DNA of 64,000 bases from the human T2T-CHM13v2.0 reference genome, Homo sapiens (GCF_009914755.1 NC_060928.1), one strand, 5' to 3'. Positions 5,316 through 64,000 are shown, counted from the stretch's first letter. Translations and numbers: made by a program. The notes: generated by a model not told the origin, from the letters alone.

Positions 5316-5319
5316 TGGG

Positions 5320-5612
5320 ACCCCTGAACCTGACCCTGACCCCTGACCCTGATCCCTAACCCCTGACCCTGACCCCTAACCCCTGACCCTAACCCTAACC
5401 CTTAACCGTAACCCCTAAGCCTAACCCCTAACCACAACCCTCACCCTCACACTAATCCAACCCTAACCCCTTATCCCTAACCCCTAACCTCTCTTAACCT
5501 CTAACTCTAAACGTTGACTCTTAACTCTTAACTCTGACCCCAACCCCTATCTCCAACCCCTAACCCTAAACTTAACCCCTAACCCCTAACCCTAACACCA
5601 ACCTTAACCCTA
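5320..5612 (+). repeat. Interstitial degenerate telomeric repeat (CCCTAA/CCCTGA)n
   Basis: Runs of ccctaa, ccctga and cccctaa variants over ~290 bp. Confidence 0.95.
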
Positions 5613-9300: not shown

Positions 9301-9430
9301 CATGAGGGGAAGGTGAGATTTGAGGAAGGAGAGGAAAGGCATCTATCGTAGCAAAAAAAAAAAAAACCGCGCAAAGGAGAAGCAGGGAATGGGTCCCCCA
9401 CAGACGAAAGTGCCTTCCCATCAGGCCCTG
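6386..9430 (+). repeat. GC-rich satellite, ~15 monomers of ~190-228 bp, probably gamma-satellite GSATII
   Basis: Anchor ccatgaggggaaggtgag recurs at ~6389, 6581, 6804, 6998, 7199, 7419, 7639, 7855, 8083, 8275, 8499, 8713, 8911, 9106 and 9300; each monomer has an A-tract. The family name is recalled from memory, not from a search. Confidence 0.7.
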
Positions 9431-9805
9431 AGGGATTGAAACAGAATGAGGAGTGACTAATGTCTACAGAGTTTTTCTCTGGTCGGGGGTGATAAGACGT
9501 TCTACAATGGATTGCGAATTAAAATTGAATGTGCACAACCACAGGTATACTAAAAGCCACTCAATTCATGACTTTTAATGGGGGAATCTTATGTGGCGCA
9601 CTCTCATGGAGACCACGGCAGACATAGTGAGAGAGAAAAAGGTGAGTAAATATCTGAAACGGAGGCAGAAACAGAGAGAATGAAAAGCCCTGTGAATGGA
9701 AGGGAGAGCGAAAAGGGAAAATGGTCCTATTTACAAATGACAGATGTGAAACTGGGGTTCACATCAACAGTGTCAATGCCAGGAAGGAGGGTGATGCTAG
9801 CCATG

Positions 9806-22931: not shown

Positions 22932-25703
22932 TCAGCCACGTGGGCCAGCAGGAGGGTCCCGCTGCACAGCTGTGGGGTGAGGATAGACTGGGTGGTGATA
23001 TCGGCCATGACGGGGGCCTCTTCTGCTGGCAAGAGTGTGACAGTAGCAAGTAGATGGACAGGCCTGCGTGTGAGGACGGAATGCAGGAGCGGCTCTTGTG
23101 CGGCTGGGTGTGGGGCCCTCACGGGAACCGTGGAGTAATGGCCAGGTAACTGCGTCATGTGGGCTAGTAGATTGGCCAGGGCTTCGAACTGAAGGACAAT
23201 AACGGGGAGTAGCTGTCAGGCCCTGGGAGTGTCTGAGTGTAAGTGGAGATGGGTTTGGGATCACTGAGGGATGCGTGGGAGCCATCCCTGTATAGGTACA
23301 GGTCATAGGGAGATACTCTCGTGAGGCCTGTGAGTGTCTAGGGTTGTCCTGGGTGCCTGGGGCTGACTGTGGCAGAAATCTGGGGAAGGCTGGAGAGAAG
23401 CTGGGAGACCCAGGAGAGTCCCTGAAGGCAGGGGGTGAAGAGGTGAAAGAAATGGGGGAGGGTTGCAGTAAGGTCCGTGAGTTTGTAGGTGATTCCTGGG
23501 TGCGGGAAGCTGACTCCAGGTGAAATCTGGAGATGGTTGGAGAGTAGCTGAGAGAGGCAGAAGAGTCCCTGAGGGCTGGGGGTGAGAACATGAGGGAGAC
23601 TGGGGAGTAAGTCAGTGAAATTCGTGAGTTCGGTGTTGTATCGTGGGTGCCTGGAACTGACTCCAGCTGGAATCTAGAGAAGTTTTGAGAGTAGCTGAAA
23701 GAGACACAAGAGTCCCTGTGGGCTGAGGGCAAAGACCTGAGAGAGACCAGGGAGGACCTCAGTGAAGTCTGTGAGTCCGTAGGTGATTCTGGAGTGTGGG
23801 AGGCTGACTCCCGCTGAAATCTGGGCGTGGTGGGGGAGTAGCTGGGACAGACAGGAGAGTCCCAGGGGGCTGGGGGTGAAGACATGAGAGAGACTGGGGA
23901 GTAACTCAGTGAAACTGCTGAGTTTGTAGGTGATACCTGGGTGCCTGGAACTGACTCCCGCTGAAATCTGGGCATGGTTGGAGAGTATCTGGGACACACA
24001 GGAGAGTCCCTGAGGGCTGGGGGTGAAGACATGAGAGAGTCCGGGGAGTAACTGAGTGAAACTGGTGAGTTTGGTGGTGACTCCGGGTTGCCTGGAACTG
24101 ACTCCAGCTGAAATGTGGGCGTGGTTGGAGAGTAGCTGGGACAGACAGGAGAGTCCCTGAGGGCTGGTGAAGACATGAGAGAGACTGGAGAGTAATTGAG
24201 TGAAATTGGTGAGTTTGGTGGTGATTCCTGGGTGCCTGGAACTGACTCCCGCTGAAGTGTGGGCGTGGTTGGAGAGTAGCTGGGACACACAGGAGAGTCC
24301 CTGAGGGTTGGAGATAAAGACGTGCTAGAGACTGAGGAGTAACTGAGTGAAACTGGTGAGTTTGGTGGTGATTCCGGGGTGCCTGGAACTGACTCCAGCT
24401 GCAATGTGGGCGTCGTTGGAGAGTAGCTGGGACAGACGGGAGAGTCCCTGAGGGATGGTGAAGACATGAGAGAGACTGCGGAGTAACGCAGTGAAATTGA
24501 TGAGTTTGGTGGTGATTTCTGGGTGCCTGCAACGGACTCCGGCTGAAGTGTGGGCGTGTTTGGAGAGTAGCTGGGACAGACAGGCGAGTCCCTGAGGGTT
24601 GGAGATAAAGACGTGCTAGAGACTGGGGAGTAACTCAGTGAAAGTGGTGGGCTTGGCGGTGATCCCTGGGTTCCTGGAACTGACCCGCGCTGAAATGTGG
24701 GCGTGGTTGGAGAGTACCTGGGACAGACAGGAGAGTCATGGGTGGCTGGTGGTGAGCTGCTGGATGATGGCAGGAAGAACATGTGGTATATTATTGATGA
24801 ATGAGGTGACTGTGAAGAATCTCCAGAGGAGGACACGGGAGAACACAATGACATGAGTGACTGTCCTGCTTGGTTAGGAAAGGGAAACGTAAAGCTGTGG
24901 AATTCTGTTGATGATGGATGTGAGAGTGGTGAAGCCCTGCGGGATGATGTAGAGTACTTCCATATCCCTGGTGAGGAGCTGCCCCTTGGGTCTGAGTTTC
25001 TGGGAGGGGAGAGGGAGAAGCTGGGTGAGGCAGGCATGAATCTTGAGGAGTCAGGCCTGGGGGACCGCTCATATTCTCCCGAGACCTGTGAGTCTCTGGG
25101 GGACTCCTGGGTGCATGTGGCTGACTCCCGCAGGAACCTGGGGATGGCTGGAGAGTAACTGGGAGCCACAGGAGAGTCCCTGAGGCCTGGGGGTGAAGAG
25201 ATGAAAGACACAGGGGTGGAGCACCGTGAGGCTCGTGAGTTTGTAGGTGATTCCTGGGTTTGGGGGGCTGACTCCAGCTGAAATCTGGGGTTGTTTGGAG
25301 AGTAGCTGGGAGACACAGGACACCCCCTGAGAGCTGGGGGTGAGCTGCTGGGTGATGGCAGTAAGAACATGTGGTATATTATTGATGAACCTGGGGACTC
25401 TGAGGAATCCTCAGAGGAGGACAGAGGAGAGCCCGATGGCTTCATTGATTGCCCATCACGGTGAGGACAGGGAAATGGGAGCTTCTGGGATTCTGGTGAT
25501 GACAGAGGTGAGTGTGGTGAAGCCCTAGAGGATGGTGAATGGTAGCTCCGGATCCCTGGTGAGGAGCTTCCCCTTAAGCCTGAGTTTCTGAGATGGGAGA
25601 GGGAGAAGCTGGGTGAGGCTCACATGGACCTTGGGGAGTCCAGGCTTGGGGACCGTTCATAAGAAGAGTCAGACAAGTCCCTACGGTTCTTTGGTGCAGA
25701 CAT
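22932..25703 (-). pseudogene. Copy 3: nonsense at codon 28 (CGA>TGA); residual 837-aa ORF from Met87
   Basis: Homologous ATG at 25703, then ATG TGA at ~25625-25620 where intact copies read ATG CGA; DUX4 motif mutated. Confidence 0.6.
23315..25665 (-). repeat. ACRO1-type array (unit 3)
   Basis: 147/144-bp periodicity. Confidence 0.8.
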
Positions 25704-31992: not shown

Positions 31993-32344
31993 GATTAGGA
32001 AACCTGCAGCTCCCAGGGGCCCCTACTAATTTTCTAACTCGCAGAAGGAAGGAGTGTGTGTGCGTGTGTGTGAGTGTGTGCGTGTGTGTGCGTGTGTGTG
32101 TGTCTGTGTGTGTGTGGTGTGAGGTATTTGCCCCTTAAGAAAATGGAAATCAACCAACCAATGAGACAGACACACAGACAGACAGACAGACAGACAGACA
32201 GAGATTCACTTGCCCAAGTGTTCTGTCCTGTCCTCTGAATCCGCCTCCAAGTCGCAAGACGCCGTGAGCTCCAAGTCCACGCAGAGTCCGCCAAAGGCTC
32301 TGGCCGCTGATCCCCTCCGCGAAGATCTGAGTACAGGCCAGCCA

Positions 32345-32370
32345 GGGTGGGTTTAACACCGGGTGTTTTC
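32345..32370. other. Inversion junction where unit orientation switches
   Basis: cagggtgggtt-TAA-caccgggtgtt joins the TATA region of a minus unit to the mid-spacer of a plus unit through TAA microhomology (32354-32356). Confidence 0.9.
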
Positions 32371-33204
32371 TACTTCCTTTCGTCCTTCTTTCCTTCCTTC
32401 CTTCCTTCCTTCTTTCCTTCCTTCCTTCCTACCTTCCTTCTTTCCTTCCTTCCTTCCTTCCTCCAATTTCTCTCTTACTCCTTCTGCCCTCTCTCTTTCA
32501 TATGCCTTAGGTGCATCCCACATTCTGCGTTTTTTTGGGGAAATCCTCCACAGGTGCAGGAAAATTGTGTTATTGTAACTATTTACCGCTATCTCTGTTT
32601 CACGGCTCTCCATCAGTTGTGAACATGTATTGGTTTATCGCAAGTCACTAAGCATATTTTTATTAGGTACACATGTTTTTCCTTATACAGCTGTTTCTGG
32701 AGTAGAGGGTCGCATACTCATAAACCCAGTGTAACTCAGAAACGCATCTAATATTCCAATAAACCCATCATAACGTTGAAAAATCTTGAATCAAACCATC
32801 ATAAGTCACGGTTTGTCCGTGGATATGGGTGTCATCAATTCCATTGTATACAGTAATGCTGTACACCATTAACAATGGCAGACTGATTGGGAGTGCATAT
32901 TGATAGCATTATAAAAGTCAGTTATTAGAGGGATACTTCTTTAACCTGACTGAAGCAGTGATCTAATGGCTTTAGTACAGTGCATGATTATGTGAGATGT
33001 TTTGATACAGAGTAGCACATTTGTGAATGAAATTTTATGGCTTTTTTTCACTTAGTAGGAACCATTGTGTGTGGAAAAGTGAGAAAATTCCTTTCTTCTG
33101 TAAGGTCTGGCATTCATTGTAGATTTAAGCTTATTTTTCTGTGAGCAAATCTTATTCAATAAAATACTACTCTTTATACTAAAAAACAAAAACAGTGGTG
33201 ATGT

Positions 33205-34221: not shown

Positions 34222-34232
34222 TGATTGGATTA
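34222..34232 (-). promoter_or_regulatory. DUX4-type motif TGATTGGATTA (copy 5); also intact at 40520, 46800, 52955 and 58960
   Basis: Exact consensus match at the same position in each unit. Confidence 0.55.
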
Positions 34233-34669: not shown

Positions 34670-34765
34670 TGACTGACGGAAAGGAGGAGTGAAGCTCCAC
34701 CCTTTCCGCTGCTAGGTTGCGCCCGAGGCTATTTAAACCCACCCTGGCTGGCCTATACTCAGATC
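34670..34765 (+). promoter_or_regulatory. Candidate core promoter of copy 5: TATTTAAA 34730-34737, Inr +1 at 34761 (equivalents 41025/41056, 47308/47339, 53463/53494, 59461/59492)
   Basis: 31-bp TATA-Inr spacing in each of these copies; in copy 5 there is no ATG between +1 and the ORF start. Confidence 0.6.
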
Positions 34766-35087
34766 TTCGCGGAGCGGATCAGCGGCCGAGCCTTTGGCGG
34801 ACTCTGCGTGGACTTGGAGCTCACGGCGTCTTGCGACTTGGAGGCGGATTCAGAGGACAGGACAGAACACTTGGGCAAGTGAATCTCTGTCTGTCTGTCT
34901 GTCTGTGTGTCTGTCTCATTGGTTGGTTGATTTCCATTTTCTTAAGGGGCACATACCTCACACCGCACACACACAGACACACACACACGCACACACACGC
35001 ACACACTCACACACACGCACACACACTCCTTCCTTCTGCGAGTTAGAAAATTAGTAGGGGCCCCTGGGAGCTGCAGGTTTCCTAATC

Positions 35088-38006
35088 ATGTCTGCACCTA
35101 AGAACAGTAGGGTCTTGTCTGGCTCTTCTTATGAACGGTCCCCCAGCCCGGACTCCCCAAGGTCCATGCGAGCCTCACCCAGCTTCTCCTTCTCCCCTCT
35201 CAGAAACTCAGGCTTAAGGGGAAGCTCCTCACCAGGGATCCGGAGCTACCATTCACCATCCCCTAGGGCTTCACCACACTCACCTCTGTCATCACCAGAA
35301 TCCCACAAGCTCCCATTTCCCTGTCCTCACCGTGATGGGCAATCAATGAAGCCATCGGGCTCTCCTCTGTCCTCCTCTGAGGATTCCTCAGAGTCCCCAG
35401 GTTCATCAATAATATACCACATGTTCTTACTGCCATCACCCAGCAGCTCACCCCCAGCTCTCGGGGGGTGTCCTGTGTCTCCCAGCTACTCTCCAAACAA
35501 CCCCAGATTTCAGCTGGAGTCAGCTGCCCACACCCAGGAATCACCTACAAACTCACGAGCCTCACGGTGCTCCACCCCTGTGTCTTTCATCTCTTCACCC
35601 CCAGGCCTCAGGGACTCTCCTGTGGCTCCCAGTTACTCTCCAGCCATCCCCAGGTTCCTGCAGGAGTCAGCCCCATGCACCCAGGAGTCCCCCAGAGACT
35701 CACAGGTCTCGGGAGAATATGAGCGGTCCCCCAGCCCTGATTCCTCAAGATTCATGCCTGCCTCACCCAGCTTCTCCCTCTCCCCTCTCAGAAACTCAGA
35801 CCCAAGGGGCAACTCCTCACCAGGGATGTGGAAGTACTCTACATCATCCCACAGGGCTTCACCACTCTCACATCCATCATCAACAGAATTCCACAGCTTT
35901 ACGTTTCCCTTTCCTAACCAAGCAGGACAGTCACTCATGTCATTGTGTTCTCCCGTGTCCTCCTCTGGAGATTCTTCACAGTCACCTCATTCATCAATAA
36001 TATACCATATGTTCTTACTGCCATCATCCAGCAGCTCACCCCCAGCCACCCATGACTCTCCTGTCTGTCCCAGCTACTCTCCAACCACGCCCACATTTCA
36101 GCGGCAGTCTGTACCCCACACCCCAGCAACACCTACAAACTCACAGACCTCAGGGAGATCCTGGCCAGTCTCTCTCACGTCTTCACCCCCAGCCCTTACG
36201 GACCCTCCAGTCTGTCCCAGCTACTCTCCAACCACGCCCACATTTCAGCGCGGGTCAGTTCCAGGAAGCCAGGGATCACCGCCAAGCCCACCACATTCAC
36301 TGAGTTACTCCCCAGTCTCTAGCACGTCTTTATCTCCAACCCTCAGGGACTCGCCTGTCTGTCCCAGCTACTCTCCAAACACGCCCACACTTCAGCCGGA
36401 GTCCGTTGCAGGCACCCAGAAATCACCACCAAACTCACCAATTTCACTGCGTTACTCCCCAGTCTCTCTCATGTCTTCACCATCCCTCAAGGACTCTCCC
36501 GTCTGTCCCAGCTACTCTCCAACCACGCCCACATTGCAGCTGGAGTCAGTTCCAGGCACCCCGGAAACACCACCAAACTCACCAGTTTCACTCAGTTACT
36601 CCTCAGTCTCTAGCACGTCTTTATCTCCAACCCTCAGGGACTCTCCTGTGTTTCCCAGCTACTCTCCAACCACGCCCACACTTCAGCGGGAGTCAGTTCC
36701 AGGCACCCAGGAATCACCACGAAACTCACCAATTTCACTCAATTACTCTCCAGTCTCTGTCATGCCTTCACCAGCCCTCAGGGACTCTCCTGTCTGTCCA
36801 AGCTACTCTCCAACCACGCCCACATTTCAGCTGGAGTCAGTTCCAGGCAACCCGGAGTCACCACCAAACTCACCAGTTTCACTCAGTTACTCCCCGGACT
36901 CTCTCATGTCTTCACCCCCAGCCCTCAGGGACTCTCCTGTGTGTCCCAGATACTCTCCAACCATGCCCAGATTTCAGCGGGAGTCAGTTCCAGGCACCCA
37001 GGTATCACCTACAAACTCAGCAGTTTCACTGAGTTACTCCCCAGTCTCTCTCATGTCTTCACCCCCAGCCCCCTGGGACTCTCCTGTCTGTCCCAGCTAC
37101 TCCCGCACCACGCCCAGATTTCAGCGGGAGTCAGCCTCCCACACTCCAGAGTCACCTACGGACTCACAGACTTCACTGAGGTCCTCCCTGGTCTCTCTCA
37201 GGTCTTTGCCCTCAGCCCACAGGGACTCTTGGGTCTCTTTCAGCTACTCTCAAAACTTCTCTAGATTCCAGCTGGAGTCAGTTCCAGGCACCCACGATAC
37301 AACACCGAACTCACGAATTTCACTGACTTACTCCCCAGTCTCCCTCATGTTCTCACCCCCAGCCCTCAGGGACTCTTCTGTCTCTCTCAGCTACTCTCCA
37401 ACCATCTCTAGATTTCACCTGGAGTCAGCTTCCCGCACCCAGGAATCACCTACAAACTCACGGACCTTACTGCAACCCTCCCCCATTTCTTTCACCTCTT
37501 CACCCCCTGCCTTCAGGGACTCTCCTGGGTCTCCCAGCTTCTCTCCAGCCTTCCCCAGATTTCTGCCACAGTCAGCCCCAGGCACCCAGGACAACCCTAG
37601 ACACTCACGGGCCACACGAGACTATCTCCCTATGACCTGTACCTATACAGGGATGGCTCCCATGCATCCCTCAGTGACCCCAAACCCATCTCCACTTACA
37701 CTCAGACACTCCCAGGGCCTGACAGCTACTCCCCGTTATTGTCCTTCAGTTCGAAGCCCTGGCCAATCTACTAGCCCACATGACGCAGTTACCTGGCCAT
37801 TACTCCACGGTTCCCGTGAGGGCCCCACACCCAGCCGCACAAGAGCCGCTCCTGCATTCCGTCCTCACACGCAGGCCTGTCCATCTACTTGCTACTGTCA
37901 CACTCTTGCCAGCAGAAGAGGCCCCCGTCATGGCCGATATCACCACCCAGTCTATCCTCACCCCACAGCTGTGCAGCGGGACCCTCCTGCTGGCCCACGT
38001 GGCTGA
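35088..38006 (+). CDS. Putative CTD-like repeat protein, copy 5 (972 aa; short C-terminal allele ending AGPRG)
   Basis: Intact 2.9 kb ORF; first AUG after the predicted TSS, with A at -3. Confidence 0.55.
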   Translation: MSAPKNSRVLSGSSYERSPSPDSPRSMRASPSFSFSPLRNSGLRGSSSPGIRSYHSPSPRASPHSPLSSPESHKLPFPCPHRDGQSMKPSGSPLSSSEDSSESPGSSIIYHMFLLPSPSSSPPALGGCPVSPSYSPNNPRFQLESAAHTQESPTNSRASRCSTPVSFISSPPGLRDSPVAPSYSPAIPRFLQESAPCTQESPRDSQVSGEYERSPSPDSSRFMPASPSFSLSPLRNSDPRGNSSPGMWKYSTSSHRASPLSHPSSTEFHSFTFPFPNQAGQSLMSLCSPVSSSGDSSQSPHSSIIYHMFLLPSSSSSPPATHDSPVCPSYSPTTPTFQRQSVPHTPATPTNSQTSGRSWPVSLTSSPPALTDPPVCPSYSPTTPTFQRGSVPGSQGSPPSPPHSLSYSPVSSTSLSPTLRDSPVCPSYSPNTPTLQPESVAGTQKSPPNSPISLRYSPVSLMSSPSLKDSPVCPSYSPTTPTLQLESVPGTPETPPNSPVSLSYSSVSSTSLSPTLRDSPVFPSYSPTTPTLQRESVPGTQESPRNSPISLNYSPVSVMPSPALRDSPVCPSYSPTTPTFQLESVPGNPESPPNSPVSLSYSPDSLMSSPPALRDSPVCPRYSPTMPRFQRESVPGTQVSPTNSAVSLSYSPVSLMSSPPAPWDSPVCPSYSRTTPRFQRESASHTPESPTDSQTSLRSSLVSLRSLPSAHRDSWVSFSYSQNFSRFQLESVPGTHDTTPNSRISLTYSPVSLMFSPPALRDSSVSLSYSPTISRFHLESASRTQESPTNSRTLLQPSPISFTSSPPAFRDSPGSPSFSPAFPRFLPQSAPGTQDNPRHSRATRDYLPMTCTYTGMAPMHPSVTPNPSPLTLRHSQGLTATPRYCPSVRSPGQSTSPHDAVTWPLLHGSREGPTPSRTRAAPAFRPHTQACPSTCYCHTLASRRGPRHGRYHHPVYPHPTAVQRDPPAGPRG
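35125..37620 (+). repeat. ACRO1-type array (unit 5)
   Basis: 147/144-bp periodicity. Confidence 0.8.
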
Positions 38007-38301: not shown

Positions 38302-41181
38302 AGTCATGAATTGAGTGGCTTTTAGTACACCTGTGGTTGTGCACATTCAATTTTAATTCGCAATCCATTGTAGAATGTCTTATCACCCCCGACCAGAGAA
38401 AAACCCTGTAGACATTAGTCACTCCTCATTCTGTCTCAAACCCTCTCCCTGACCCTCAGCCCTAGGTAGCAACTACCTAGTGCGATCAACCACATATGCA
38501 GAGATTTCCATATTGTGGACATTTCCTTTAAACGGAATTGCACAATAGGTGAGCTGTTATGACTGACATAACACGTAGCACAATATTTTCAAGATTCCTC
38601 CACATTGTAGGCTTACCCACAGGGGGAAACCATATTTTTGGGGGGTTTTAGTAACACCGGGTGTTTTCTCCTTCCTTTCGTCCTTCTTTCCTTCTTTCCT
38701 TCCTTCTTTCTTTCCTTCCGTCCTTCCTACCTTCCTTCTTTCCTTCCTTCCTTCCTTCCTCCTATTTCTCTCTTACTCCTTCTGCCCTCTCACTTTCACA
38801 TGCCTTAGGTGCATCCCACATTCTGCGTTTTCTTGGGGAAATCCTCGACAGGTGCAGGAAAATTGTGTTATTGTAACTATTTACCGCTATCTCTCTTTCA
38901 CGGCTCTCCATCAGTTGTGAACATCTATTGGTTTATCGCAAGTCACTAAGCATATTTTTATTATGTACACCTGTTTTTCCTTATACAGCTGTTTCTGGAG
39001 TATAGGGTCGCATACTCATAAACCCAGTGTAACTCGGAACCGCATCTAATATTCCAATAAACCCATCATAACGTTGAAAAATCATGAATCAAACCATCAT
39101 AAGTCACGGTTTGTCCATGGATATGGGTGTCATCAATTCCATTGTATACAGTAATGCTGTACACCATTAACAATGGCAGACTGATTGGGAGTGCATATTG
39201 ATCGCATTATAAAAGTCAGTTATTAGAGGGATACTTCTTTAACCTGACTGAAGCAGTGATCTAATGGCTTTAGTACAGTGCATGATTATGTGAGATGTTT
39301 TGAGACAGAGTAATACATTTGTGAATGAAATTTTATGGCTTTTTTTCACTTAGTAGGAACCATTGTGTGTGGAAAAGTGAGAAAATTCCTTTCTGCTGTA
39401 GAGTCTGGCATTCATTGTAGATTTAAGATTATTTTTCTGTGAGCAAATCTTATTCAATAAAATGCTACTCTTTATACTAAAAAACAAAAACAGCGGTGAT
39501 GTGTGGTCATTATCCTCAGCAAACTAATCCAGGGAAAGAAAACCAAACGCCACATTCTCACTTACAATGGGAGCTGAAAAATGAGATGACATGGACACAG
39601 GAAGGGGAACAACACACACTGGGGCCTTTCGGGAGGCAGAGCGTTAAGAAAAACAGCTACTGCATGCTGGGCTTAATACCTAGGTGATGGGTTGACAGGT
39701 GCAGTAAACCACCATGGCACACGTTTACCTTAGTAACAAATCTGCCCATCCTGCACATATACCCCACAACTTAGAATCGAAACGAAACAAAAGAAAACGA
39801 AAAAGCAGTAGCAAAACGCTAAAGGCAAAATAAAGTTTCAAACTCAGAAAGTGACAGACCAATGTTTGGTTCAAATCATGGTTCTCAACCCAGGTGCCAT
39901 AAGGTCAGGATAAGGAATTTGATTACATATTGTAAATAAGACATGCAGCAAATGACCAGAAAGATTATTCTCAACATATGTGTGTCTTCTAATTCAATGG
40001 TGACGCTATCTACCGGGACATAGCATTGGATTCCAAAGGGCCGAGTCCCGCCAGGCAGGCCTCCCACACTAGTAACAACGGGAAGCCCTACGTTGTTTTA
40101 CCTGTGCTTCTCAGCAACTGGCTATAAATCAGGTTGCCACCACTCCCAGATTTAGTTGCATTCATTTGCTGGAAGAGCTCACGGCACTCGGGGAAACACT
40201 TACATTTGCCGTTGTTATTTAGCGGACATTGCAAAAAGTTCAGAAATAAATGTGGGGCCCGGCATGTGGGGAGGGGCGCACTACCTTCCAAGAAGTGTTA
40301 TACAGAAGCTCTCTGATCCCAGTCCTTTTGGGTTTTTATGGAGACCTCATTCTATAGGCATGATGGGTTAAACCATAGGCTATTGGTGATCAACTCCACC
40401 TGAGGCTCTCAACCCTCCCTGGAAATTGGGGTTGAGGCTTTGCCATTCTCAGTCTGAATAAAAGAATTTACCCAAACGGAATTTTAAAACAGATGAGCAC
40501 AACTGGAATCTTAATTAGATGATTGGATTATCTGGAGCCACACCTTGATATTCCGAACCCGAGCACCCTCATCCAACGAATGCTCCACCCAACTGGCTCC
40601 CAAGTCTCCACCTGGTCCCAGAGCAAAAGAATGTTTATACAACGCATATCTCCACCTTTTCTTCAAAGTCTTTTCGCTTACACGGAAAGACTTCTTAAAC
40701 TGCCATGCATCAGGGTCAGGGGGAGGTCTTGTTACAACACAGATCTGTGGATCTCCGGGGTTTGATTGTGGCAAGGATGCTGCTGGCGTCAAAACCACAA
40801 CGTGGGAACCACAGAACCACTAGTTGGTTTTCAGTGTTTCAGTGCATACAATTCCTAATATATCTGGCCAAGAAAACTTGGAAGTTCTTAGATTGTTCCA
40901 AAGGTGGCGCATGAAATCAAAGTAGAACAGTTTCCTACGAGGTGTAGCCTGGGAAAGTTGGGGGTGACTGACGGAAAGGAGGAGTGAAGCTCCGCCCTTT
41001 CCGCTGCTAGGTTGCGCCCGAGGCTATTTAAACCCACGCTGGCTGGCCTGTACTCAGATCTTCGCGGAGCGGATCAGCGGCCGGAGCCTTTGGCGGACTC
41101 TGCGTGGACTTGGAGCTCACGGCGTCTTGCGACTTGGAGGCAGATTCAGAGGACAGGACAGAACACTTGGGCAAGTGACTC

Positions 41182-59839: not shown

Positions 59840-62530
59840 ATGTCTGCTCCTAAGAACAGTAGGGTCTTGTCTGGCTCTTCTTATGAACGGTCCCACAGCC
59901 CGGACTCCCCAAGGTCCATGCGAGCCTCACCCAGCTTCTCCCTCTCCCATCTCAGAAACTCAGGCTTAAGGGGAAGCTCCTCACCAGGGATCCGGAGCTA
60001 CCATTCACCATCCCCTAGGGCTTCACCACACTCACCTCTGTCATCACCAGAATCCCACAAGCTCCCATTTCCCTGTCCTGACCGTGATGGGCAATCAATG
60101 AAGTCATCGGGCTCTCCTCTGTCCTCCTCTGAGGATTCCTCAGAGTCCCCAGGTTCATCAATAATATACCACATGTTCTTACTGCCATCACCCAGCAGCT
60201 CACCCCCAGCTCTCGGGGGGTCTCCTGTGTCTCCCAGCTACTCTCCAAACAACCCCAGATTTCAGCTGGAGTCAGCCCCCCACACCCAGGAATCACCTAC
60301 AAACTCACGAGCCTCACGGTGCTCCACCCCTGTGTCTTTCATCTCTTCACCCCCAGGCCTCAGGGACTCTCCCGTGGCTCCCAGTTACTATCCAGCCATC
60401 CCCAGGTTCCTGCGGGATTCAGTCGCATGCACCCAGGAGTCCCCCAGAGACTCACAGGTCTCGGGAGAATATGAGCGGTCCCCCAGCCCTGACTCCTCAA
60501 GATTCATGCCTGCCTCACCCAGCTTCTCCCTCTCCCCTCCCAGAAACTCAGACCCAAGGGGCAGCTCCTCACCAGGGATGTGGAAGTACTCTACATCATC
60601 CCGCAGGGCTTCACCACTCTCACATCCATCATCAACAGAATTCCACAGCTTTACGTTTCCATTTCCTAACCAAGCAGGACAGTCACTCATGTCATTGTGT
60701 TCTCCCGTGTCCTCCTCTGGAGATTCTTCACAGTCACCTCATTCATCAATAATATACCATATGTTCTTACTGCCATCATCCAGCAGCTCACCCCCAGCCA
60801 CCCATGACTCTCCTGTCTGTCCCAGCTACTCTCCAACCACGCCCACATTTCAGCGGGAGTCTGTACCCCACACCCCAGAAACACCTACAAACTCACAGAC
60901 CTCAGTGAGATCCTGGCCAGTCTCTCTCACGTCTTCACCCCCAGCCCTTACGGACCCTCCAGTCTGTCCCAGCTACTCTCCAACCACGCCCACATTTCAG
61001 CGCGGGTCAGTTCCAGGAACCCAGGGATCACCGCCAAGCCCACCACTTTCACTGAGTTACTCCCCAGTCTCTAGCACGTCTTTATCTCCAACCCTCAGGG
61101 ACTCGCCTGTCTGTCCCAGCTACTCTCCAAACACGCCCACACTTCAGTGGGAGTCCGTTGCAGGCACCCAGAAATCACCACCAAACTCACCAATTTCACT
61201 GCGTTACTCCCCAGTCTCTCTCATGTCTTCACCATCCCTCAGGGACTCTCCCATCTGTCCCAGCTACTCTCCAACCACGCCCACATTGCAGCTGGAGTCA
61301 GTTCCAGACACCCCGGAGTCACCACCAAACTCACCAGTTTCACTCAGTTACTCCCCGGTCTCTCTCATGTCTTCACCCCCAGCCCTCAGGGACTCTCCTG
61401 TGTGTCCCAGCTACTCTCCAACCATGCCCAGATTTCAGCGGGAGTCAGTTCCAGGCACCCAGGTATCACCTACAAACTCAGCAGTTTCACTGAGTTACTC
61501 TCCAGTCTCTCTCATGTCTTCACCCCCAGCCCCCTGGGACTCTCCTGTCTGTCCCAGCTACTCTCCCACCACGCCCAGATTTCAGCGGGAGTCAGCCTCC
61601 CACACTCCAGAATCACCTACGGACTCACAGACTTCACTGAGGTCCTCCCTGGTCTCTCTCAGGTCTTTGCCCTCAGCCCACAGGGACTCTCGTGTCTCTT
61701 TCAGCTACTCTCAAAACTTCTCTAGATTCCAGCTGGAGTCAGTTCCAGGCACCCACGATACACCACCGAACTCACGAATTTCACTGACTTACTCCCCAGT
61801 CTCCCTCATGTTCTCACCCCCAGCCCTCAGGGACTCTTCTGTCTCTCTCAGCTACTCTCCAACCATCTCCAGATATCACCTGGAGTCAGCTTCCTGCACC
61901 CAGGAATCACCTACAAACTCACGGACCTTACTGCAACCCTCCACCATTTCTTTCACCTCTTCACCCCCTGCCTTCAGGGACTCTCCTGGGTCTCCCAGCT
62001 TCTCTCCAGCCTTCCCCAGATTTCTGCCACAGTCAGCCCCAGGCACCCAGGACAACCCTAGACACTCACAGGCCTCACGAGAGTATCTCCCTATGACCTG
62101 TACCTATACAGGGATGGCTCCCACGCATCCCTCAGTGACACAAAACCCATCTCCACTTACACTCAGACACTCCCAGGGCCTGACAGCTACTCCCCGTTAT
62201 TGTCCTTCAGTTCGAAGTCCTGGCCAATCTACTAGCCCACATGACGCAGTTACCTGGCCATTACTCCACGGTTCCCGTGAGGGCCCCACACCCAGCCTCA
62301 CAAGAGCCCCTCCTGCATTCCGTCCTCACACGCAGGCCTGTCCATCTACTTGCTACTGGCACACTCTTGCCAGCAGAAGAGGCCCCTGTCATGGCCGATA
62401 TCACCACCCAGTCTATCCTCACCCCACAGCTGTGCAGCGGGACCCTCCTGCTGGCCCACGTGGCTGCCAGAGCCCATGCTGGCAAGACGCTCCAGCAGGT
62501 CGGCGTCCCTGTGGGACACACTGCCCGTGA
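59840..62530 (+). CDS. Putative CTD-like repeat protein, copy 9 (896 aa; mirror of copy 1)
   Basis: Intact ORF; differs from copy 1 by one residue that I could see (SPVC versus SPVG). Confidence 0.55.
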   Translation: MSAPKNSRVLSGSSYERSHSPDSPRSMRASPSFSLSHLRNSGLRGSSSPGIRSYHSPSPRASPHSPLSSPESHKLPFPCPDRDGQSMKSSGSPLSSSEDSSESPGSSIIYHMFLLPSPSSSPPALGGSPVSPSYSPNNPRFQLESAPHTQESPTNSRASRCSTPVSFISSPPGLRDSPVAPSYYPAIPRFLRDSVACTQESPRDSQVSGEYERSPSPDSSRFMPASPSFSLSPPRNSDPRGSSSPGMWKYSTSSRRASPLSHPSSTEFHSFTFPFPNQAGQSLMSLCSPVSSSGDSSQSPHSSIIYHMFLLPSSSSSPPATHDSPVCPSYSPTTPTFQRESVPHTPETPTNSQTSVRSWPVSLTSSPPALTDPPVCPSYSPTTPTFQRGSVPGTQGSPPSPPLSLSYSPVSSTSLSPTLRDSPVCPSYSPNTPTLQWESVAGTQKSPPNSPISLRYSPVSLMSSPSLRDSPICPSYSPTTPTLQLESVPDTPESPPNSPVSLSYSPVSLMSSPPALRDSPVCPSYSPTMPRFQRESVPGTQVSPTNSAVSLSYSPVSLMSSPPAPWDSPVCPSYSPTTPRFQRESASHTPESPTDSQTSLRSSLVSLRSLPSAHRDSRVSFSYSQNFSRFQLESVPGTHDTPPNSRISLTYSPVSLMFSPPALRDSSVSLSYSPTISRYHLESASCTQESPTNSRTLLQPSTISFTSSPPAFRDSPGSPSFSPAFPRFLPQSAPGTQDNPRHSQASREYLPMTCTYTGMAPTHPSVTQNPSPLTLRHSQGLTATPRYCPSVRSPGQSTSPHDAVTWPLLHGSREGPTPSLTRAPPAFRPHTQACPSTCYWHTLASRRGPCHGRYHHPVYPHPTAVQRDPPAGPRGCQSPCWQDAPAGRRPCGTHCP
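59875..62085 (+). repeat. ACRO1-type array (unit 9)
   Basis: 147/144-bp periodicity. Confidence 0.8.
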
Positions 62531-62906
62531 CATGGCTAGCATCACCCTCCTTCCTGGCATTGACACTGTTGATGTGAACCCCAGTTTCACATCTGTCATT
62601 TGTAAATAGGACCATTTTCCCTTTTCGCTCTCCCTTCCATTCACAGGGCTTTTCATTCTCTCTGTTTCTGCCTCCGTTTCAGATATTTACTCACCTTTTT
62701 CTCTCTCACTATGTCTGCCGTGGTCTCCATGAGAGTGCGCCACATAAGATTCCCCCATTAAAAGTCATGAATTGAGTGGCTTTTAGTATACCTGTGGTTG
62801 TGCACATTCAATTTTAATTCGCAATCCATTGTAGAACGTCTTATCACCCCCGACCAGAGAAAAACTCTGTAGACATTAGTCACTCCTCATTCTGTTTCAA
62901 TCCCTC

Positions 62907-64000
62907 AGGGCCTGATGGGAAGGCACTTTCGTCTGTGGGGGACCCATTCCCTGCTTCTCCTTTGCGCGGTTTTTTTTTTTTTTGCTACGATAGATGCCTT
63001 TCCTCTCCTTCCTCAAATCTCACCTTCCCCTCATGTGGCTTCTGTCTGCCTTGGGGTACACCTAGCGGCCCGAGGTGCACTGTGGGATCGAACCAGGGAC
63101 TCCAGGGTCCCTGAGGCCCAGCACGAGGCCTGATGGGAAGATACTTTCGTCCGTTTGGAGGACCCAGTCCCCGCTTCTCCGCGGCTGTGTTTGTTTTTCT
63201 CTGCCCCAGGTGCCTCACCTTCCCCTCTTGTGCTTTTTGCAAGCTTTGGGGTACCCCTAGCGGCCCAAGGCATACCCTGGGCTTGAACCATGGAAGCCAG
63301 GTTCCACAGGGTCAAGCGCAGTGGCTGATGATAAGACACGTTCTTCCTCGGGGACCCAGGCTCTGCTTCTCTGTGGCGTTTTTTTTTCTTTTCTTTTCCA
63401 CAGGTGCCTCACTTTCCCGTCATGGGCTTTCTGCCCGCCTTGAGGTACCCCTAGCCGGCCCGAGGCGCACCCTTGTTTTGAGCCAGGGATGCTAGGGTCT
63501 CCGGGGCCCAGTGTAGGGCTTATGGGTAGGGACGTTCGTCCATGGGGAACCCAGGCCCCACTTCTGGTGGGCGCAGTTTTTTATTTTGTTCTCTGCCCCA
63601 GGTGTCTCACCTTTCCCTCATGGGCCTTCTGTCTGTCTTGGGGTACCCCTAGCGGCCTGAATCGCACCCTGGTCTCGAACCAGGAATGCCAGGGTCCCCT
63701 GTGCCCAGCGCAAGGGCTGATGGGAAGACACTTTCTTCCGTTGGGGATCCAGGCTCCGCTTCTCCGTGGTGCAGTTTTTTTTTTTCTGCCACAGGTGCCT
63801 CACCTCTCCTTCCTCAAACCTCAACTGCCCCTCATGGGATTTCTGCCCTCCTTGTGATACCCCTAGCAGGCCCGGGGCGCACCCGGGGCTCGAACTGGGG
63901 TCTCCAGCGTCCACAGGGCCCAGCGCAGGGACTGATGGGAAGGCATTTTCATCCTTGGGGTACCCAGGCCCAGCTTCTCCTAGGCGCGGCTTGTTTTCTT
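62907..64000 (-). repeat. Inverted copy of the GSATII-like satellite (mirror of 8336-9430), running off the window
   Basis: Spurious ORFs mirror exactly, e.g. 9203-9421 versus 62915-63133 (coordinate sum 72336). Confidence 0.85.

What the first reader, a model, noticed from the sequence alone, without database searches (positions are those of the whole stretch)
36050..37400. The 49-aa monomer is seven in-phase Pol II CTD-like heptads (7 x 21 bp)
Seen: the monomer parses as DSPVCPS / YSPTTPT / FQLESVP / GTPESPP / NSPVSLS / YSPVSLM / SSPPALR. S/T-P falls at heptad positions 2-3 in six of seven heptads, Ser/Thr often at position 5, and an aromatic at position 1 in three. Established: the POLR2A CTD is (Y1S2P3T4S5P6S7)n, is phosphorylated by CDK7/9/12 and is read by CTD-binding proteins. 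I recall that in-silico similarity of ACRO1 to the CTD has been noted before in Pol II-binding aptamer work, so the resemblance itself is probably not new. The strict heptad register within a promoter-equipped full ORF is the added observation. Inference: a free CTD mimic or decoy (kinase sink, condensate scaffold), possibly derived from CTD-coding DNA.
Basis: partly seen in the sequence, partly recalled or inferred. Interest (0 to 1): 0.85.

Follow-up and report, generated by a model that had tools for sequence, protein, structure and literature searches.

The report
CTD-like heptad satellite inside conserved ORF
The ACRO1 satellite monomer really is seven 21-base units that read as RNA polymerase II tail-like heptads, which was already published, but it sits inside a roughly 1000-codon reading frame that is also open in marmoset, so it may be a real multi-copy early-embryo gene.

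Summary
The core observation holds. The 147-bp ACRO1 monomer has a real 21-nt sub-period (0 of 3000 shuffles reach it). In one frame it gives seven S/P-rich heptads, with S/T-P at heptad positions 2 and 5. It matches the real POLR2A CTD only in phase: 22-23 of 49 residues and 84 of 147 nt.

This is not new. Boots et al. 2020 published the 23/49 match, its heptad nature and a possible CTD-mRNA origin. The register is also not strict: two of the ten monomers here are 48 aa.

The new result concerns the reading frame.
- The 972-codon ORF (35088-38006) is at least 1000 aa open in 97 of 133 scored copies in T2T-CHM13.
- It is collinear, with the same start and C-terminal module, with an 832-aa marmoset predicted protein. 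Neutral drift to that divergence predicts 6.5-7.7 stops in the non-array part alone.
- More distant homologues with one or a few monomers keep a near-invariant C-terminal CPSTCYCHTLA.RR block.

Against coding:
- Among human copies dN/dS is about 1.
- ACRO1 RNA attenuates its own transcription in reporter assays.

A CTD decoy function is untested and poorly supported. The marmoset protein and the compact forms show no detectable CTD similarity.

My reading: a fast-evolving, multi-copy, probably coding gene whose internal heptad module was amplified into a satellite.

The parts
36054..37517 (+). Ten ACRO1 monomers (eight of 147 nt, two of 144 nt). Each is 7 x 21 nt and reads as seven S/P-rich heptads in the ORF frame. 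A partial eleventh monomer follows at 37518-37589.
   Evidence: TRF; monomer starts; heptad layout and [ST]P positions; 21-nt periodicity.
35088..38006 (+). ORF of 972 codons (ATG to TGA, standard code) spanning the N-terminal modules, the ACRO1 array and the C-terminal module.
   Evidence: This frame has 0 internal stops, against 11 and 18 in the other two + frames and 42-91 on the reverse strand. Composition alone predicts 25.7.
35088..36053 (+). N-terminal 322 codons. An N-module plus two degenerate monomers, then a second N-module (a repeat of about 588 nt). Carries the conserved IIYHMF blocks and a weaker 21-nt periodicity.
   Evidence: Layout; lag-21 z 7.5; 228/321 residues identical to marmoset with a single one-residue gap; internal repeat 78.6% identical.
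37590..38003 (+). C-terminal non-array module of 138 codons.
   Evidence: 106/144 identical to marmoset with no gaps; aligned to 14 homologues.
37878..37919 (+). Conserved Cys/His block CPSTCYCHTLASRR.
   Evidence: Near-invariant columns C97 P98 S99 H104 T105 L106 A107 and invariant R109, in a 15-sequence alignment that includes rows only 30-43% identical overall.
38004..38006 (+). The stop codon TGA of this copy. 28 of the 31 sampled copies have Cys (27 TGC, 1 TGT) here and read on for 31 more codons, so this copy is C-terminally truncated relative to the family.
   Evidence: the usual end ...PCGPHYR is seen.
34730..34737 (+). TATA-like TATTTAAA in a CpG-rich stretch (13-16 CpG per 200 nt), 358 nt upstream of the ATG. 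This is a consensus match only.
34760..35087 (+). Putative 5' leader with (TCTG)n at 34886-34916 and (CA)n at 34966-35026. It holds no ATG before the ORF start. Start context CTAATCATGT (A at -3).
   Evidence: 0 upstream ATG in 16 of 16 copies where both anchors were found; 50 of 5000 shuffles of the leader lack ATG.
34222..34232 (-). TAATCCAATCA, which fits the DUX4 site TAAYBBAATCA. It lies about 500 nt upstream of the TATA-like box and occurs once per unit in 6 of the 9 units.
   Evidence: 6 matches against 0.21 expected, but the units are copies of each other, so this is one independent event. The motif string occurs in 3 DUX4 papers (listing only).
39056..39061 (+). First AATAAA on the ORF strand after the stop, about 1 kb downstream.
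   Evidence: Pattern match only.

Best explanation
**What it is**
- The stretch is the ACRO1 satellite array of one roughly 6.3-kb ACRO (ACRE) composite unit.
- Its 147-bp monomer is an old heptamer of a 21-bp unit. In one frame it therefore reads as seven S/P-rich heptads with S/T-P at positions 2 and 5, as in the Pol II CTD.
- The array is the amplified middle of a reading frame of about 970-1100 codons, with its own N-terminal and C-terminal modules.

**Evidence it is coding**
- The frame is open in most human copies.
- It is collinear and open in marmoset.
- More distant homologues with one or a few modules keep a conserved C-terminal Cys/His block.

**Most likely mechanism** (inferred, not shown)
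- ACRO units are a multi-copy, fast-evolving protein-coding gene family.
- A TATA/CpG promoter about 360 nt upstream of the ATG drives them, in response to DUX4 at the 4-cell stage.
- The product is an intrinsically disordered Ser/Pro-rich protein with about 100 proline-directed phosphorylation-type sites.

**On the CTD likeness**
- The heptad phase follows from the 21-bp DNA periodicity.
- The strong CTD likeness belongs to the module type that was amplified in the human lineage. It is not a conserved property of the family.
For: **Periodicity and CTD likeness**
- The 21-nt period is shown. It also appears in the N-module (z 4.2) and the C-terminal part (z 3.2).
- In-phase match to the POLR2A CTD: 22-23/49 aa and 84/147 nt. 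A null that keeps composition and the 21-nt period gives mean 65.7, sd 3.2, max 81, with 0 of 2000 reaching 84.
- PDB search: 13 of 14 hits are RPB1.

**ORF census in human**
- 6 of the 9 units in the window keep the ORF from the same ATG.
- By my count, 97 of 133 scored copies on chr 1, 3, 4, 13, 14, 15, 21 and 22 have an open frame of at least 1000 aa. 3 of the 133 have a stop inside the matched 294 aa.

**Cross-species**
- P0003 is an 832-aa marmoset protein that uniref/nr names 'DNA-directed RNA polymerase II subunit RPB1'.
  - It has the same start (MSASKN against MSAPKN).
  - The N-terminal part is 228/321 identical with one 1-aa gap.
  - The C-terminal part is 106/144 identical with no gap.
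- Neutral simulation: reaching 71-74% aa identity needs 0.14-0.17 substitutions per site. That creates on average 6.5-7.7 stops in the 466 non-array codons. 0 of 300 runs stay open at those divergences under either mutation spectrum.
- Even at the rates seen among human copies (8 stops and 8 frameshifts per 639 substitution events), my estimate is about 5 disruptions in these codons.

**Distant homologues**
- P0098 is 355 aa and 41-48% identical. It has the start, IIYHMF, one module (DSPVSPSYSPTIPRF) and the C-terminal block.
- P0103, P0090 and P0130 keep CPS.CYCHTLA.RR.

**Promoter-like features**

**Literature**
- ACRO1 RNA peaks at the 4-cell stage (PMC6545021, abstract and passages).
- DUX4 induces ACRO1 transcripts (passages in review PMC11467316 and preprint PMC12776069).
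[quoted passage not shown] 2020)' (PMC12746033, passage).
- NCBI names predicted proteins 'RPB1-like' in Piliocolobus and Papio.
Against: **Substitution patterns look neutral**
- Among 31 human copies the non-synonymous to synonymous ratio, relative to mutational opportunity, is 1.01 in the ORF frame. The two control frames give 1.06 and 1.01. It is about 1 in every frequency class.
- Monomer-level differences fall 45/61/55 on codon positions 1/2/3, with omega 0.8-1.0.
- The compact chr2 copy gives omega 0.79 (bootstrap 0.43-1.8). Its ORF is no better conserved than its flanks: 94-96% against 94-95%.

**Copies decay**
- Frameshifts occur freely in single copies: 8 of 10 small indels beyond position 35400 are frameshifts.
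- The apparent deficit of nonsense changes (8 seen against 25.5 expected) lies only in transversions. Transitions give 4 seen against 5.0 expected. The substitution spectrum is odd (ts/tv 0.83), so I do not count this deficit as evidence.
- Other frames of this strand can also stay open for 200-340 aa.
- This very copy carries a premature TGA.

**Cross-species support is thin**
- Only one full-length non-human ORF was found. I cannot check its DNA.
- The two Old World monkey predictions are N-terminal fragments that end in a shifted frame.
- The distant homologues come from unnamed sources.

**No direct sign of a human protein**
- No human protein record of this length appeared in the searches.
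- RefSeq lists no gene here (hub table).
- No Pfam domain matches.

**Boots et al. 2020**
- They detected no stable ACRO1 transcripts in HeLa cells.
- A 1.1-1.4-kb ACRO1 insert, but not its reverse complement, almost abolished reporter RNA. Full-length sense mRNA may therefore be hard to make.
Confidence: 0.55

Rival explanations
1. Non-coding satellite. The heptads and the long open frame are by-products of a C-rich 21-bp/147-bp repeat whose usual indels are whole units (multiples of 3). Any function is at the RNA or chromatin level, for example the published Pol II-binding aptamers that silence the repeat's own transcription.
For: - Omega is about 1 in the ORF frame, as in the control frames.
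- There is no excess of third-position changes.
- The array shows no lag-3 signal: identity 0.228, z -4.1.
- Monomer length variants are 147 or 144 nt in 95 of 96 spacings.
- All + frames have fewer stops than composition predicts: 0, 11 and 18 against 25.7.
- Other frames stay open for 300 aa in a variant unit.
- Within the array, only 2.8-4.2 stops are expected from monomer divergence.
- Boots et al. 2020 report 1029 sense and 1 antisense ACRO1 aptamer mappings, attenuation in cis, and no stable HeLa transcripts.
Against: - It does not explain why 466 non-array codons stay open and gap-free between human and marmoset at 71-74% identity. 0 of 300 neutral runs stay open at the matching divergences, and only one 1-aa indel is seen.
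- It does not explain the near-invariant C-terminal block in homologues only 30-43% identical overall.
- It does not explain the shared start codon and the leader free of upstream ATG.
Confidence: 0.3
2. The ORF encodes a free Pol II CTD mimic that acts as a decoy for CTD kinases, phosphatases or readers, or as a condensate scaffold.
For: - The human ORF has 97 [ST]P sites and 16 YSP.
- 52 of 56 array [ST]P lie at CTD positions 2 or 5.
- RPB1 CTDs are the only meaningful PDB matches.
- The double heptad DSPV.PSYSPT.PR is the best-kept part of the module in marmoset, P0098 and P0103.
- Expression is reported just before the major wave of genome activation.
Against: - No experiment bears on it.
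- Tyr-1 is present in only 2 of 7 heptads, and heptads 3-4 (FQLESVP GTQESPT) are not CTD-like.
- Pfam's CTD repeat model does not match the ORF.
- In the whole-genome scan with that model, no ACRO copy is among the 17 matches. 150 of 629 candidates were scored.
- No RPB1 similarity is detectable in marmoset, in the compact chr2 ORF or in P0098.
- Most marmoset monomers are 14-15/49 identical to (YSPTSPS)7, against 18-23 for eight of the ten human ones.
- So mimicry, if real, is a lineage-specific gain.
Confidence: 0.08
3. Origin claim, independent of function: the ACRO1 module descends from POLR2A CTD-coding DNA, as a copy of part of the last exon or its mRNA.
For: - Gapless nucleotide identity is 84/147 and only in phase. 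0 of 2000 periodicity-preserving permutations reach it.
- The 21-mer consensus TACTCTCCAGTCTCTCTCAGG matches the CTD consensus TACTCCCCCACCTCTCCCAGC at 15/21. Single sub-units reach 15-17/21 against real CTD heptads.
- The Ser codon families agree by position. CTD: S2 and S5 mostly TCN, S7 AGC or AGT in 22 of 25 Ser. ACRO1: TCN at positions 2 and 5, AGC/AGT/AGA/AGG at position 7.
- The whole ORF carries traces of a 21-nt period.
- Boots et al. 2020 proposed this origin.
Against: - 57% identity is far below what a primate-age copy would show under neutral drift (inference).
- Sub-units 3 and 4 match at only 8-12/21.
- The compact and distant forms have no detectable RPB1 similarity.
- The look-elsewhere factor over all tandem repeats and six frames is unknown.
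- The shared Ser codon pattern is weak evidence, by a factor of about 3 (my estimate).
Confidence: 0.3

Closest known systems
RNA polymerase II RPB1 C-terminal domain (YSPTSPS repeats; Pfam PF05001)
   Same: - Both are tandem heptads encoded by 21-nt units.
- Both have S/T-P at positions 2 and 5.
- 22-23/49 residues are identical in phase.
- The Ser codon families at positions 2, 5 and 7 are the same.
- Only RPB1 CTDs are hit in the PDB.
   Different: - The ORF is free-standing and not attached to a polymerase body.
- Tyr-1 is present in 2 of 7 heptads.
- Heptads 3-4 are unrelated to the CTD.
- The repeat unit is 49 aa, not 7.
- PF05001 does not match.
- The likeness is not conserved in marmoset.
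ACRO1 Pol II-binding RNA aptamers in ACRE repeats (Boots et al. 2020, PMC7714431)
   Same: - It is the same sequence family: a 147-bp monomer in a 6-kb higher-order unit, clustered in the chr4 pericentromere.
- That paper already reports the 23/49 CTD identity and its heptapeptide character.
   Different: - That work treats ACRO1 as RNA that stops its own transcription.
- Its main text has 0 occurrences of 'open reading' and 'heptad'. Its one held supplement mentions ORF only for L1.
- It does not describe the roughly 1000-codon ORF, its start, its C-terminal module or its cross-species conservation.
Macrosatellite-encoded, DUX4-linked cleavage-stage genes such as DUX4 in D4Z4 (comparison from my own knowledge)
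   Same: - It is a kilobase-scale tandem unit, each holding one intron-less ORF with its own promoter.
- It lies in primate heterochromatin near acrocentric, pericentromeric or subtelomeric regions.
- Its RNA is reported at the 4-cell stage and after DUX4 induction.
   Different: - It has no recognisable domain.
- The ORF itself contains a satellite array.
- Translation is unproven.
- There are at least 133 copies over eight chromosomes.
NCBI automatic gene models named 'DNA-directed RNA polymerase II subunit RPB1(-like)' in Callithrix, Piliocolobus and Papio
   Same: These are translations of the same ORF family.
   Different: - They were named by similarity only.
- The two Old World monkey models are fragments of 282-291 aa that end in a shifted frame.
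- No paper I could find discusses them (0 papers hold both 'RPB1-like' and 'acrocentric').

Membership tests
Pol II CTD heptad repeat (PF05001, RNA_pol_Rpb1_R) | Tandem heptads matching Y1-S2-P3-T4-S5-P6-S7 | tested here: inconclusive
   - In phase, 22-23/49 residues are identical to real CTD windows, and no other phase exceeds 15/49.
- S/T-P falls at positions 2 and 5 in 7 of 7 consensus sites.
- Y1 is present in only 2 of 7 heptads, and heptads 3-4 are unlike the CTD.
Pol II CTD heptad repeat (PF05001, RNA_pol_Rpb1_R) | Match to the Pfam model above its curated cut-off | tested here: not met
   - No PF05001 hit for the ORF at E up to 10.
- The whole-genome scan with PF05001 gave 17 matches on chr17, chr16 and chr1 and none in ACRO units. 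150 of 629 candidates were scored.
Pol II CTD heptad repeat (PF05001, RNA_pol_Rpb1_R) | C-terminal extension of the RPB1 catalytic subunit | tested here: not met
   The ORF starts at its own ATG (35088), with S/P-rich N-modules and no polymerase domain.
Pol II CTD heptad repeat (PF05001, RNA_pol_Rpb1_R) | Phosphorylation by CDK7/9/12 and binding by CTD readers | not testable with these tools
   Needs experiments.
ACRO1 satellite in the ACRO/ACRE composite repeat | 147-bp monomer in arrays of about 1.3-2.4 kb within a roughly 6-kb higher-order unit | tested here: met
   - Nine arrays of 8.6-15.2 monomers, spaced about 6.2-6.3 kb apart.
- This matches the description in PMC7714431 section 7 and in preprint 10.64898/2025.12.22.696095.
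ACRO1 satellite in the ACRO/ACRE composite repeat | Located in the chr4 pericentromere and on acrocentric short arms | tested here: met
   - The window is chr4:49.2 Mb (hub note).
- Copies are found on chr 13, 14, 15, 21, 22, 3, 1 and 4, and on chr 2, 19 and 20.
ACRO1 satellite in the ACRO/ACRE composite repeat | Match to the Repbase/Dfam ACRO1 consensus | not testable with these tools
   No repeat library is on hand. The identification rests on period, unit structure, location and the published 23/49 CTD match, which I reproduced.
Functional protein-coding gene | Reading frame kept open across species beyond the neutral expectation | tested here: met
   - Human and marmoset are collinear, with 0 frameshifts and 0 stops in 466 non-array codons.
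- 6.5-7.7 stops are expected, and 0 of 300 neutral runs stay open at the matching divergences.
- This rests on a single marmoset model whose DNA I could not see.
Functional protein-coding gene | dN/dS below 1 | tested here: not met
   - Omega is 1.01 among 31 human copies, 0.8-1.0 among monomers and 0.79 (0.43-1.8) against the chr2 copy.
- With more than 130 redundant copies and gene conversion, this test is weak.
Functional protein-coding gene | Locally conserved residues within a diverged protein | tested here: met
   C97, P98, S99, H104, T105, L106, A107 and G115 are at least 90% conserved and R109 is invariant, in 15 sequences down to 30% overall identity.
Functional protein-coding gene | Evidence of translation | not testable with these tools
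   No ribosome-profiling or proteomic data are on hand. Only RNA-level reports were read.
DUX4-responsive cleavage-stage genes | DUX4 site near the promoter and induction by DUX4 | tested here: inconclusive
   - One TAATCCAATCA per unit, in 6 of 9 units, about 500 nt upstream of the TATA-like box.
- Induction is stated in passages of PMC11467316 and PMC12776069 that cite Hendrickson 2017, which I did not read.

The most novel reading that the evidence does not exclude
ACRO arrays are a gene family of more than 130 copies. DUX4 switches them on at the 4-cell stage. Their disordered product carries about 100 CTD-phased S/T-P sites and competes with the Pol II tail for CTD kinases, phosphatases, Pin1-type isomerases or CTD readers. 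It would thereby help to time the major wave of human embryonic genome activation. The human lineage would have raised the dose of the most CTD-like module by turning it into a satellite.
Probability: 0.07. Interest if true: 0.9.

Novelty: new member of a known kind. Interest (0 to 1): 0.58.

Why it matters
ACRO is described as the repeat class most specific to ape acrocentric short arms, and its function is unknown.

If its units are genes, three things follow:
- A large block of 'satellite' DNA next to the rDNA would be coding.
- It would vary in copy number between generations.
- It would be active in the first days of human development.

This would give a concrete, testable protein for a sequence so far discussed only as RNA or heterochromatin. 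It would also be an example of a satellite born by amplification of a coding repeat.

If the frame is not translated, the case is still a useful warning. A 21-bp-periodic satellite can imitate a famous protein motif and yield automatic 'RPB1-like' gene models.

Tried and rejected
1. **Nonsense-depletion test among 31 human copies.**
   - 8 stops seen against 25.5 expected in the ORF frame. Controls gave 10 against 17.5 and 15 against 18.1.
   - Rejected as evidence. The deficit is confined to transversions, and transitions give 4 against 5.0.
   - The spectrum has ts/tv 0.83 even for isolated events.
   - My sample was hand-picked to include short frames.
2. **Templating by other monomers as the cause of the transversion excess.**
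   - 59 of 189 transversion alleles are present at the same phase in another monomer, against 48.5 expected. This is not enough to explain the excess.
3. **Vector-strength test of [ST]P spacing over whole arrays.**
   - Uninformative (R7 0.29, 80 of 2000 shuffles). Positions 2 and 5 nearly cancel, and the 48-aa monomers shift the phase.
   - Replaced by per-monomer counts.
4. **The chr2:161.74 Mb compact copy as an independent test of selection.**
   - It is too young: 94-96% identity in the ORF and flanks alike.
5. **P0129.**
   - Its N-terminal part resembles the ORF weakly. Its C-terminal tail matches loci that encode DUX4-type homeodomains.
   - It is an unnamed, possibly chimeric model and was not used as evidence.
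6. **Pfam scans.** Scans of the ORF and of five homologues gave nothing.
9. **Literature searches.**
   - 'RPB1-like' plus 'acrocentric': 0 papers.
   - 'ACRO', 'composite', 'acrocentric' and 'open reading frame' together: 0 papers.

Full report
**1. What is there**

The window is a palindrome of roughly 6.3-kb units, four on the minus strand and five on the plus strand. Each unit carries an array of 147-bp repeats. The finding covers the array at 36036-37587 (10.6 copies, 78% matches).

The literature identifies this as the ACRO1 satellite inside the 6-kb 'ACRE' or 'ACRO' composite repeat:
- It is clustered in the chr4 pericentromere and on acrocentric short arms (PMC7714431 section 7).
- It is described as ACRO1 plus L1PA10, MER21B and L1MB8 pieces (preprint 10.64898/2025.12.22.696095, passage).

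**2. The observation**

One frame of the plus strand is open from ATG 35088 to TGA 38006, 972 codons. In that frame each monomer reads as seven heptads.

- In the array, lag 21 gives 0.416 identity (z 10.5). Lags 42-126 give 0.374-0.382 (z 6.8-8.4).
- Array copies are not independent, so I repeated the test on the single consensus of 80 monomers.
  - Circular lags 21/42/63 give 0.456/0.408/0.422, against 0.271 elsewhere.
  - 0 of 3000 mononucleotide shuffles and 0 of 3000 codon shuffles reach this at any lag.
- Sub-units 1, 2, 5, 6 and 7 share 8-14 of 21 bases with one another (mostly 10-14). Sub-units 3 and 4 share only 3-10 with the other sub-units.

At protein level the consensus is DSPVCPS YSPTTPR FQLESVP GTQESPT NSPISLS YSPVSLM SSPPALR.
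- All seven [ST]P lie at heptad positions 2 or 5. 0 of 20000 shuffles match this, and 9 of 20000 random placements do.
- In this array, 52 of 56 [ST]P do so (my tally).

- The quoted monomer is a composite. The nearest real one, at 36783, differs at two residues.
- Real monomers have S/T-P at positions 2-3 in at most five heptads, not six.
- The register is not strict. Two of the ten monomers are 48 aa. In the window, 15 of 96 spacings are 144 nt and one is 146 nt.

**3. Likeness to the CTD, tested against the real thing**

- phmmer of the ORF against all PDB chains returns 14 sequences at E up to 10, and 13 are RPB1. The best are 1.2e-7 and 1.8e-6 for a mammalian RPB1, with heavy composition bias already subtracted.
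- I located the POLR2A CTD exon in the same genome with Pfam PF05001 (chr17:7417042-7418238).
  - Sliding the consensus along it gives 22-23/49 identical residues and up to 84/147 identical bases, but only in the Y1 phase.
  - No other phase exceeds 15/49. This reproduces the published 23/49.
- A null that permutes the 21 columns alike in all seven sub-units, keeping composition and periodicity, gives mean 65.7, sd 3.2, max 81. 0 of 2000 permutations reach 84.
- The position-specific Ser codon families agree. In the CTD, S2 and S5 are mostly TCN and S7 is AGC or AGT in 22 of 25 Ser. ACRO1 has TCN at positions 2 and 5 and AGC/AGT/AGA/AGG at position 7.
- The two 21-mer consensuses share 15/21 bases.
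- The likeness therefore goes beyond composition and extends to DNA. Even so, Pfam's CTD model does not match, and Tyr-1 is present in only two heptads.

**4. Already in print**

Boots et al. 2020 (PMC7714431; abstract, section 7, discussion passages and methods read):
- They speculate that ACRO1 derives from CTD mRNA.
- Their interest is RNA.
  - ACRO1 aptamers bind Pol II, with 1029 sense mappings and 1 antisense.
  - A 1.1-1.4-kb insert, but not its reverse complement, nearly abolishes reporter RNA.
  - No stable ACRO1 transcript was seen in HeLa cells.
- Their text has no occurrence of 'open reading' or 'heptad'. Their one held supplement uses ORF only for L1.

Other mentions:
[quoted passage not shown] 2020)' (PMC12746033, passage).
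- Of 38 papers that hold 'ACRO1', I read passages of eight. None analyses the ORF.

**5. The reading frame in the human genome**

- In the window, 6 of 9 units keep the ORF from the same ATG (972, 972, 944, 896, 896 and 896 aa). Three are broken by a stop, a lost start and a frameshift.
- Genome-wide, a search with 294 aa of the array scored 133 copies on chr 1, 3, 4, 13, 14, 15, 21 and 22.
  - By my count of the table, 97 have an open frame of at least 1000 aa.
  - 3 have a stop inside the match.
- Further copies lie on chr 2, 19 and 20.
- The copies are 96-98% identical, so they are not independent witnesses.
- The copy in the finding ends at a TGA where 28 of 31 sampled copies have Cys (27 TGC, 1 TGT). 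Those copies run 31 codons further.

**6. Tests for selection among human copies**

I aligned 31 copies: the 9 in the window and 22 chosen to span chromosomes and frame lengths. I scored 639 substitution events against mutational opportunity.
- Omega is 1.01 in the ORF frame, and 1.06 and 1.01 in the two shifted frames. It is about 1 in singletons and in shared variants.
- Monomer divergence gives omega 0.8-1.0, with changes spread 45/61/55 over codon positions.
- Small indels beyond 35400 are 8 frameshifts, each in one copy, and 2 in-frame.
- Nonsense changes look depleted (8 against 25.5). The deficit lies wholly in transversions, and the spectrum is strange (ts/tv 0.83), so I set it aside.
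- With more than 130 redundant copies and gene conversion, near-neutral patterns within a genome are expected whether or not the family is functional. The acrocentric preprint makes the same point for other arrayed genes.

**7. Cross-species evidence**

The large protein library holds one full-length non-human relative, P0003. It is 832 aa, from Callithrix jacchus, and is named 'DNA-directed RNA polymerase II subunit RPB1' by uniref/nr.
- It begins MSASKN... (human MSAPKN...). It has the same doubled N-module, about eight monomers and the same C-terminal module.
- Outside the array, 228/321 and 106/144 residues are identical, with a single one-residue gap.
- In simulations, reaching that identity by neutral substitution takes 0.14-0.17 changes per site. 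This creates 6.5-7.7 stops in these 466 codons. 0 of 300 runs stay open at those divergences under either mutation spectrum.
- Family-wide fixation of disruptions should proceed at the neutral rate even under concerted evolution (inference). So the frame appears to have been kept open for the roughly 43 My that separate the two lineages (date).
- Inside the marmoset array, a stretch of about 70 aa reads in another ACRO1 frame and then returns to the ORF frame. This looks like a compensated pair of frameshifts.

Old World monkey models named 'RPB1-like' (Piliocolobus 291 aa, Papio 282 aa) share the start but end in a shifted frame.

An exhaustive profile search found 86 relatives, mostly fragments. 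A few are distant long ORFs from unnamed sources.
- P0098 is 355 aa and 41-48% identical. It has the same leader and start, IIYHMF, a single module (DSPVSPS YSPTIPR FPREPAH PPQETPN NSQTSGF CSPIYIA VSPRHPP) and the C-terminal module.
- P0103 has about five diverged modules and the C-terminal block.
- In a 15-sequence alignment, CPS.CYCHTLA.RR is nearly invariant in rows only 30-43% identical overall.
- The ORF architecture therefore looks older than the satellite. ACRO1 looks like an amplified internal module of a gene.
- Traces of the 21-nt period run through the N-module (z 4.2) and the C-terminal part (z 3.2).

**8. Is CTD mimicry the conserved property?**

It does not appear to be.
- The marmoset protein has no PDB match at E up to 10.
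- The compact human chr2 ORF (358 aa, no array) has none.
- P0098 has five weak matches, none of them RPB1.
- YSP occurs 16 times in the human ORF and 5 times in marmoset.
- Most marmoset monomers are 14-15/49 identical to (YSPTSPS)7, against 18-23 for eight of the ten human ones.
- What is shared is the double heptad DSPV.PSYSPT.PR and the 2/5 phasing of the remaining S/T-P sites.

**9. Promoter-like context**

- TATTTAAA lies at 34730 in a CpG-rich stretch.
- The leader runs 319-351 nt, through (TCTG)n and (CA)n.
- It has no upstream ATG in 16 of 16 copies where both anchors were found. 15 of the 31 copies examined failed my strict anchors and were not counted. 1% of shuffles of the leader lack ATG.
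- The start has A at -3.
- A DUX4-type site, TAATCCAATCA, lies about 500 nt further upstream. It occurs in 6 of 9 units. The motif string is found in three DUX4 papers (listing only).
- These are consensus matches in near-identical copies, so they amount to one observation.
- They fit two reports. ACRO1 RNA peaks at the 4-cell stage (PMC6545021). DUX4 induces ACRO1 transcripts (passages citing Hendrickson 2017). I do not know which strand those RNAs come from.

**10. Verdict**

The heptad and CTD likeness is real and statistically solid, but it is already published, and it follows mechanically from a 21-bp DNA period. The new and more interesting point is that the satellite is the middle of a reading frame that appears to be conserved.

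My odds:
- 0.55: a fast-evolving, multi-copy coding gene family with an amplified heptad module.
- 0.30: a non-coding satellite whose frame is a by-product.
- About 0.3: descent from CTD-coding DNA. This is a separate question about origin.

The cross-species case rests on one marmoset model and on unnamed library proteins. The decisive data are complete primate genomes and embryo ribosome profiling, and they are within reach.

Noticed in passing
window 1-64000; junction near 32200-32400: The window is an inverted duplication. Four ACRO units lie on the minus strand (ORF starts 31992, about 25445-25619 (start lost), 19537 and 12496). Five lie on the plus strand (35088, 41368, 47667, 53822 and 59840). 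The outer flanks are mirrored: 195-bp repeat arrays at 6662-9317 and 63019-63805, plus the two IF-2-like pseudogenes. The left arm has one unit fewer. The outermost units of the two arms (ORF starts 12496 and 59840) show nearly the same differences from the reference unit.
   Followed up: partly
window 5319-5612: An interstitial telomere-like (CCCTAA)n tract of about 290 bp lies in the left flank of the ACRO block, in the chr4 pericentromere.
   Followed up: no
ORF region of 31 ACRO copies (alignment): The substitution spectrum among copies is unusual. There are 290 transitions and 349 transversions (ts/tv 0.83). This holds for isolated events (216 against 264) and outside the array. Templating from other monomers explains little of it. 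The cause is unknown.
   Followed up: partly
L049 = chr2:161738834-161742406: A dispersed compact ACRO copy without the main array keeps an intact 358-codon ORF: N-module, two degenerate monomers and the C-module. It has the usual start and end. It is 94-96% identical to the chr4 unit in the ORF and flanks alike. Homology ends about 100 nt after the stop. P0017, from an unnamed NCBI genome, has the same architecture.
   Followed up: partly
chr15:99711-157540 and chr21:115439-221705; L041: A variant ACRO-like array with 6.7-7.4-kb units has open frames of 755-1387 aa (one of 1641 aa contains stops). It is about 89% identical to the chr4 unit. In L041 the frame runs about 300 aa in another ACRO1 frame before joining the S/P frame.
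   Followed up: partly
P0129 (unnamed source); L044 = chr1:128435110-128438412: A 598-aa library protein shares the ORF's start and its IMYHMF...RDSP..SYSP block. It has different repeats. Its tail (LLDELL...EEEFQALLDML) matches human loci that encode DUX4-type homeodomains. It is either a chimeric model or a link between this family and DUX genes.
   Followed up: partly
chr16:30912683-30912931, minus strand: Three PF05001 (CTD repeat) matches outside POLR2A lie in a 536-aa open frame on chr16. I did not identify the gene.
   Followed up: no
window 9735-10095, minus strand: The first exon of the RefSeq pseudogene LOC124900865 ('translation initiation factor IF-2-like') overlaps the 3' end of the outermost ACRO ORF (12496 down to 9806). 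The mirror exon 62241-62601 overlaps the ORF that ends at 62530. The automatic model therefore joins the ORF tail to flanking sequence.
   Followed up: no
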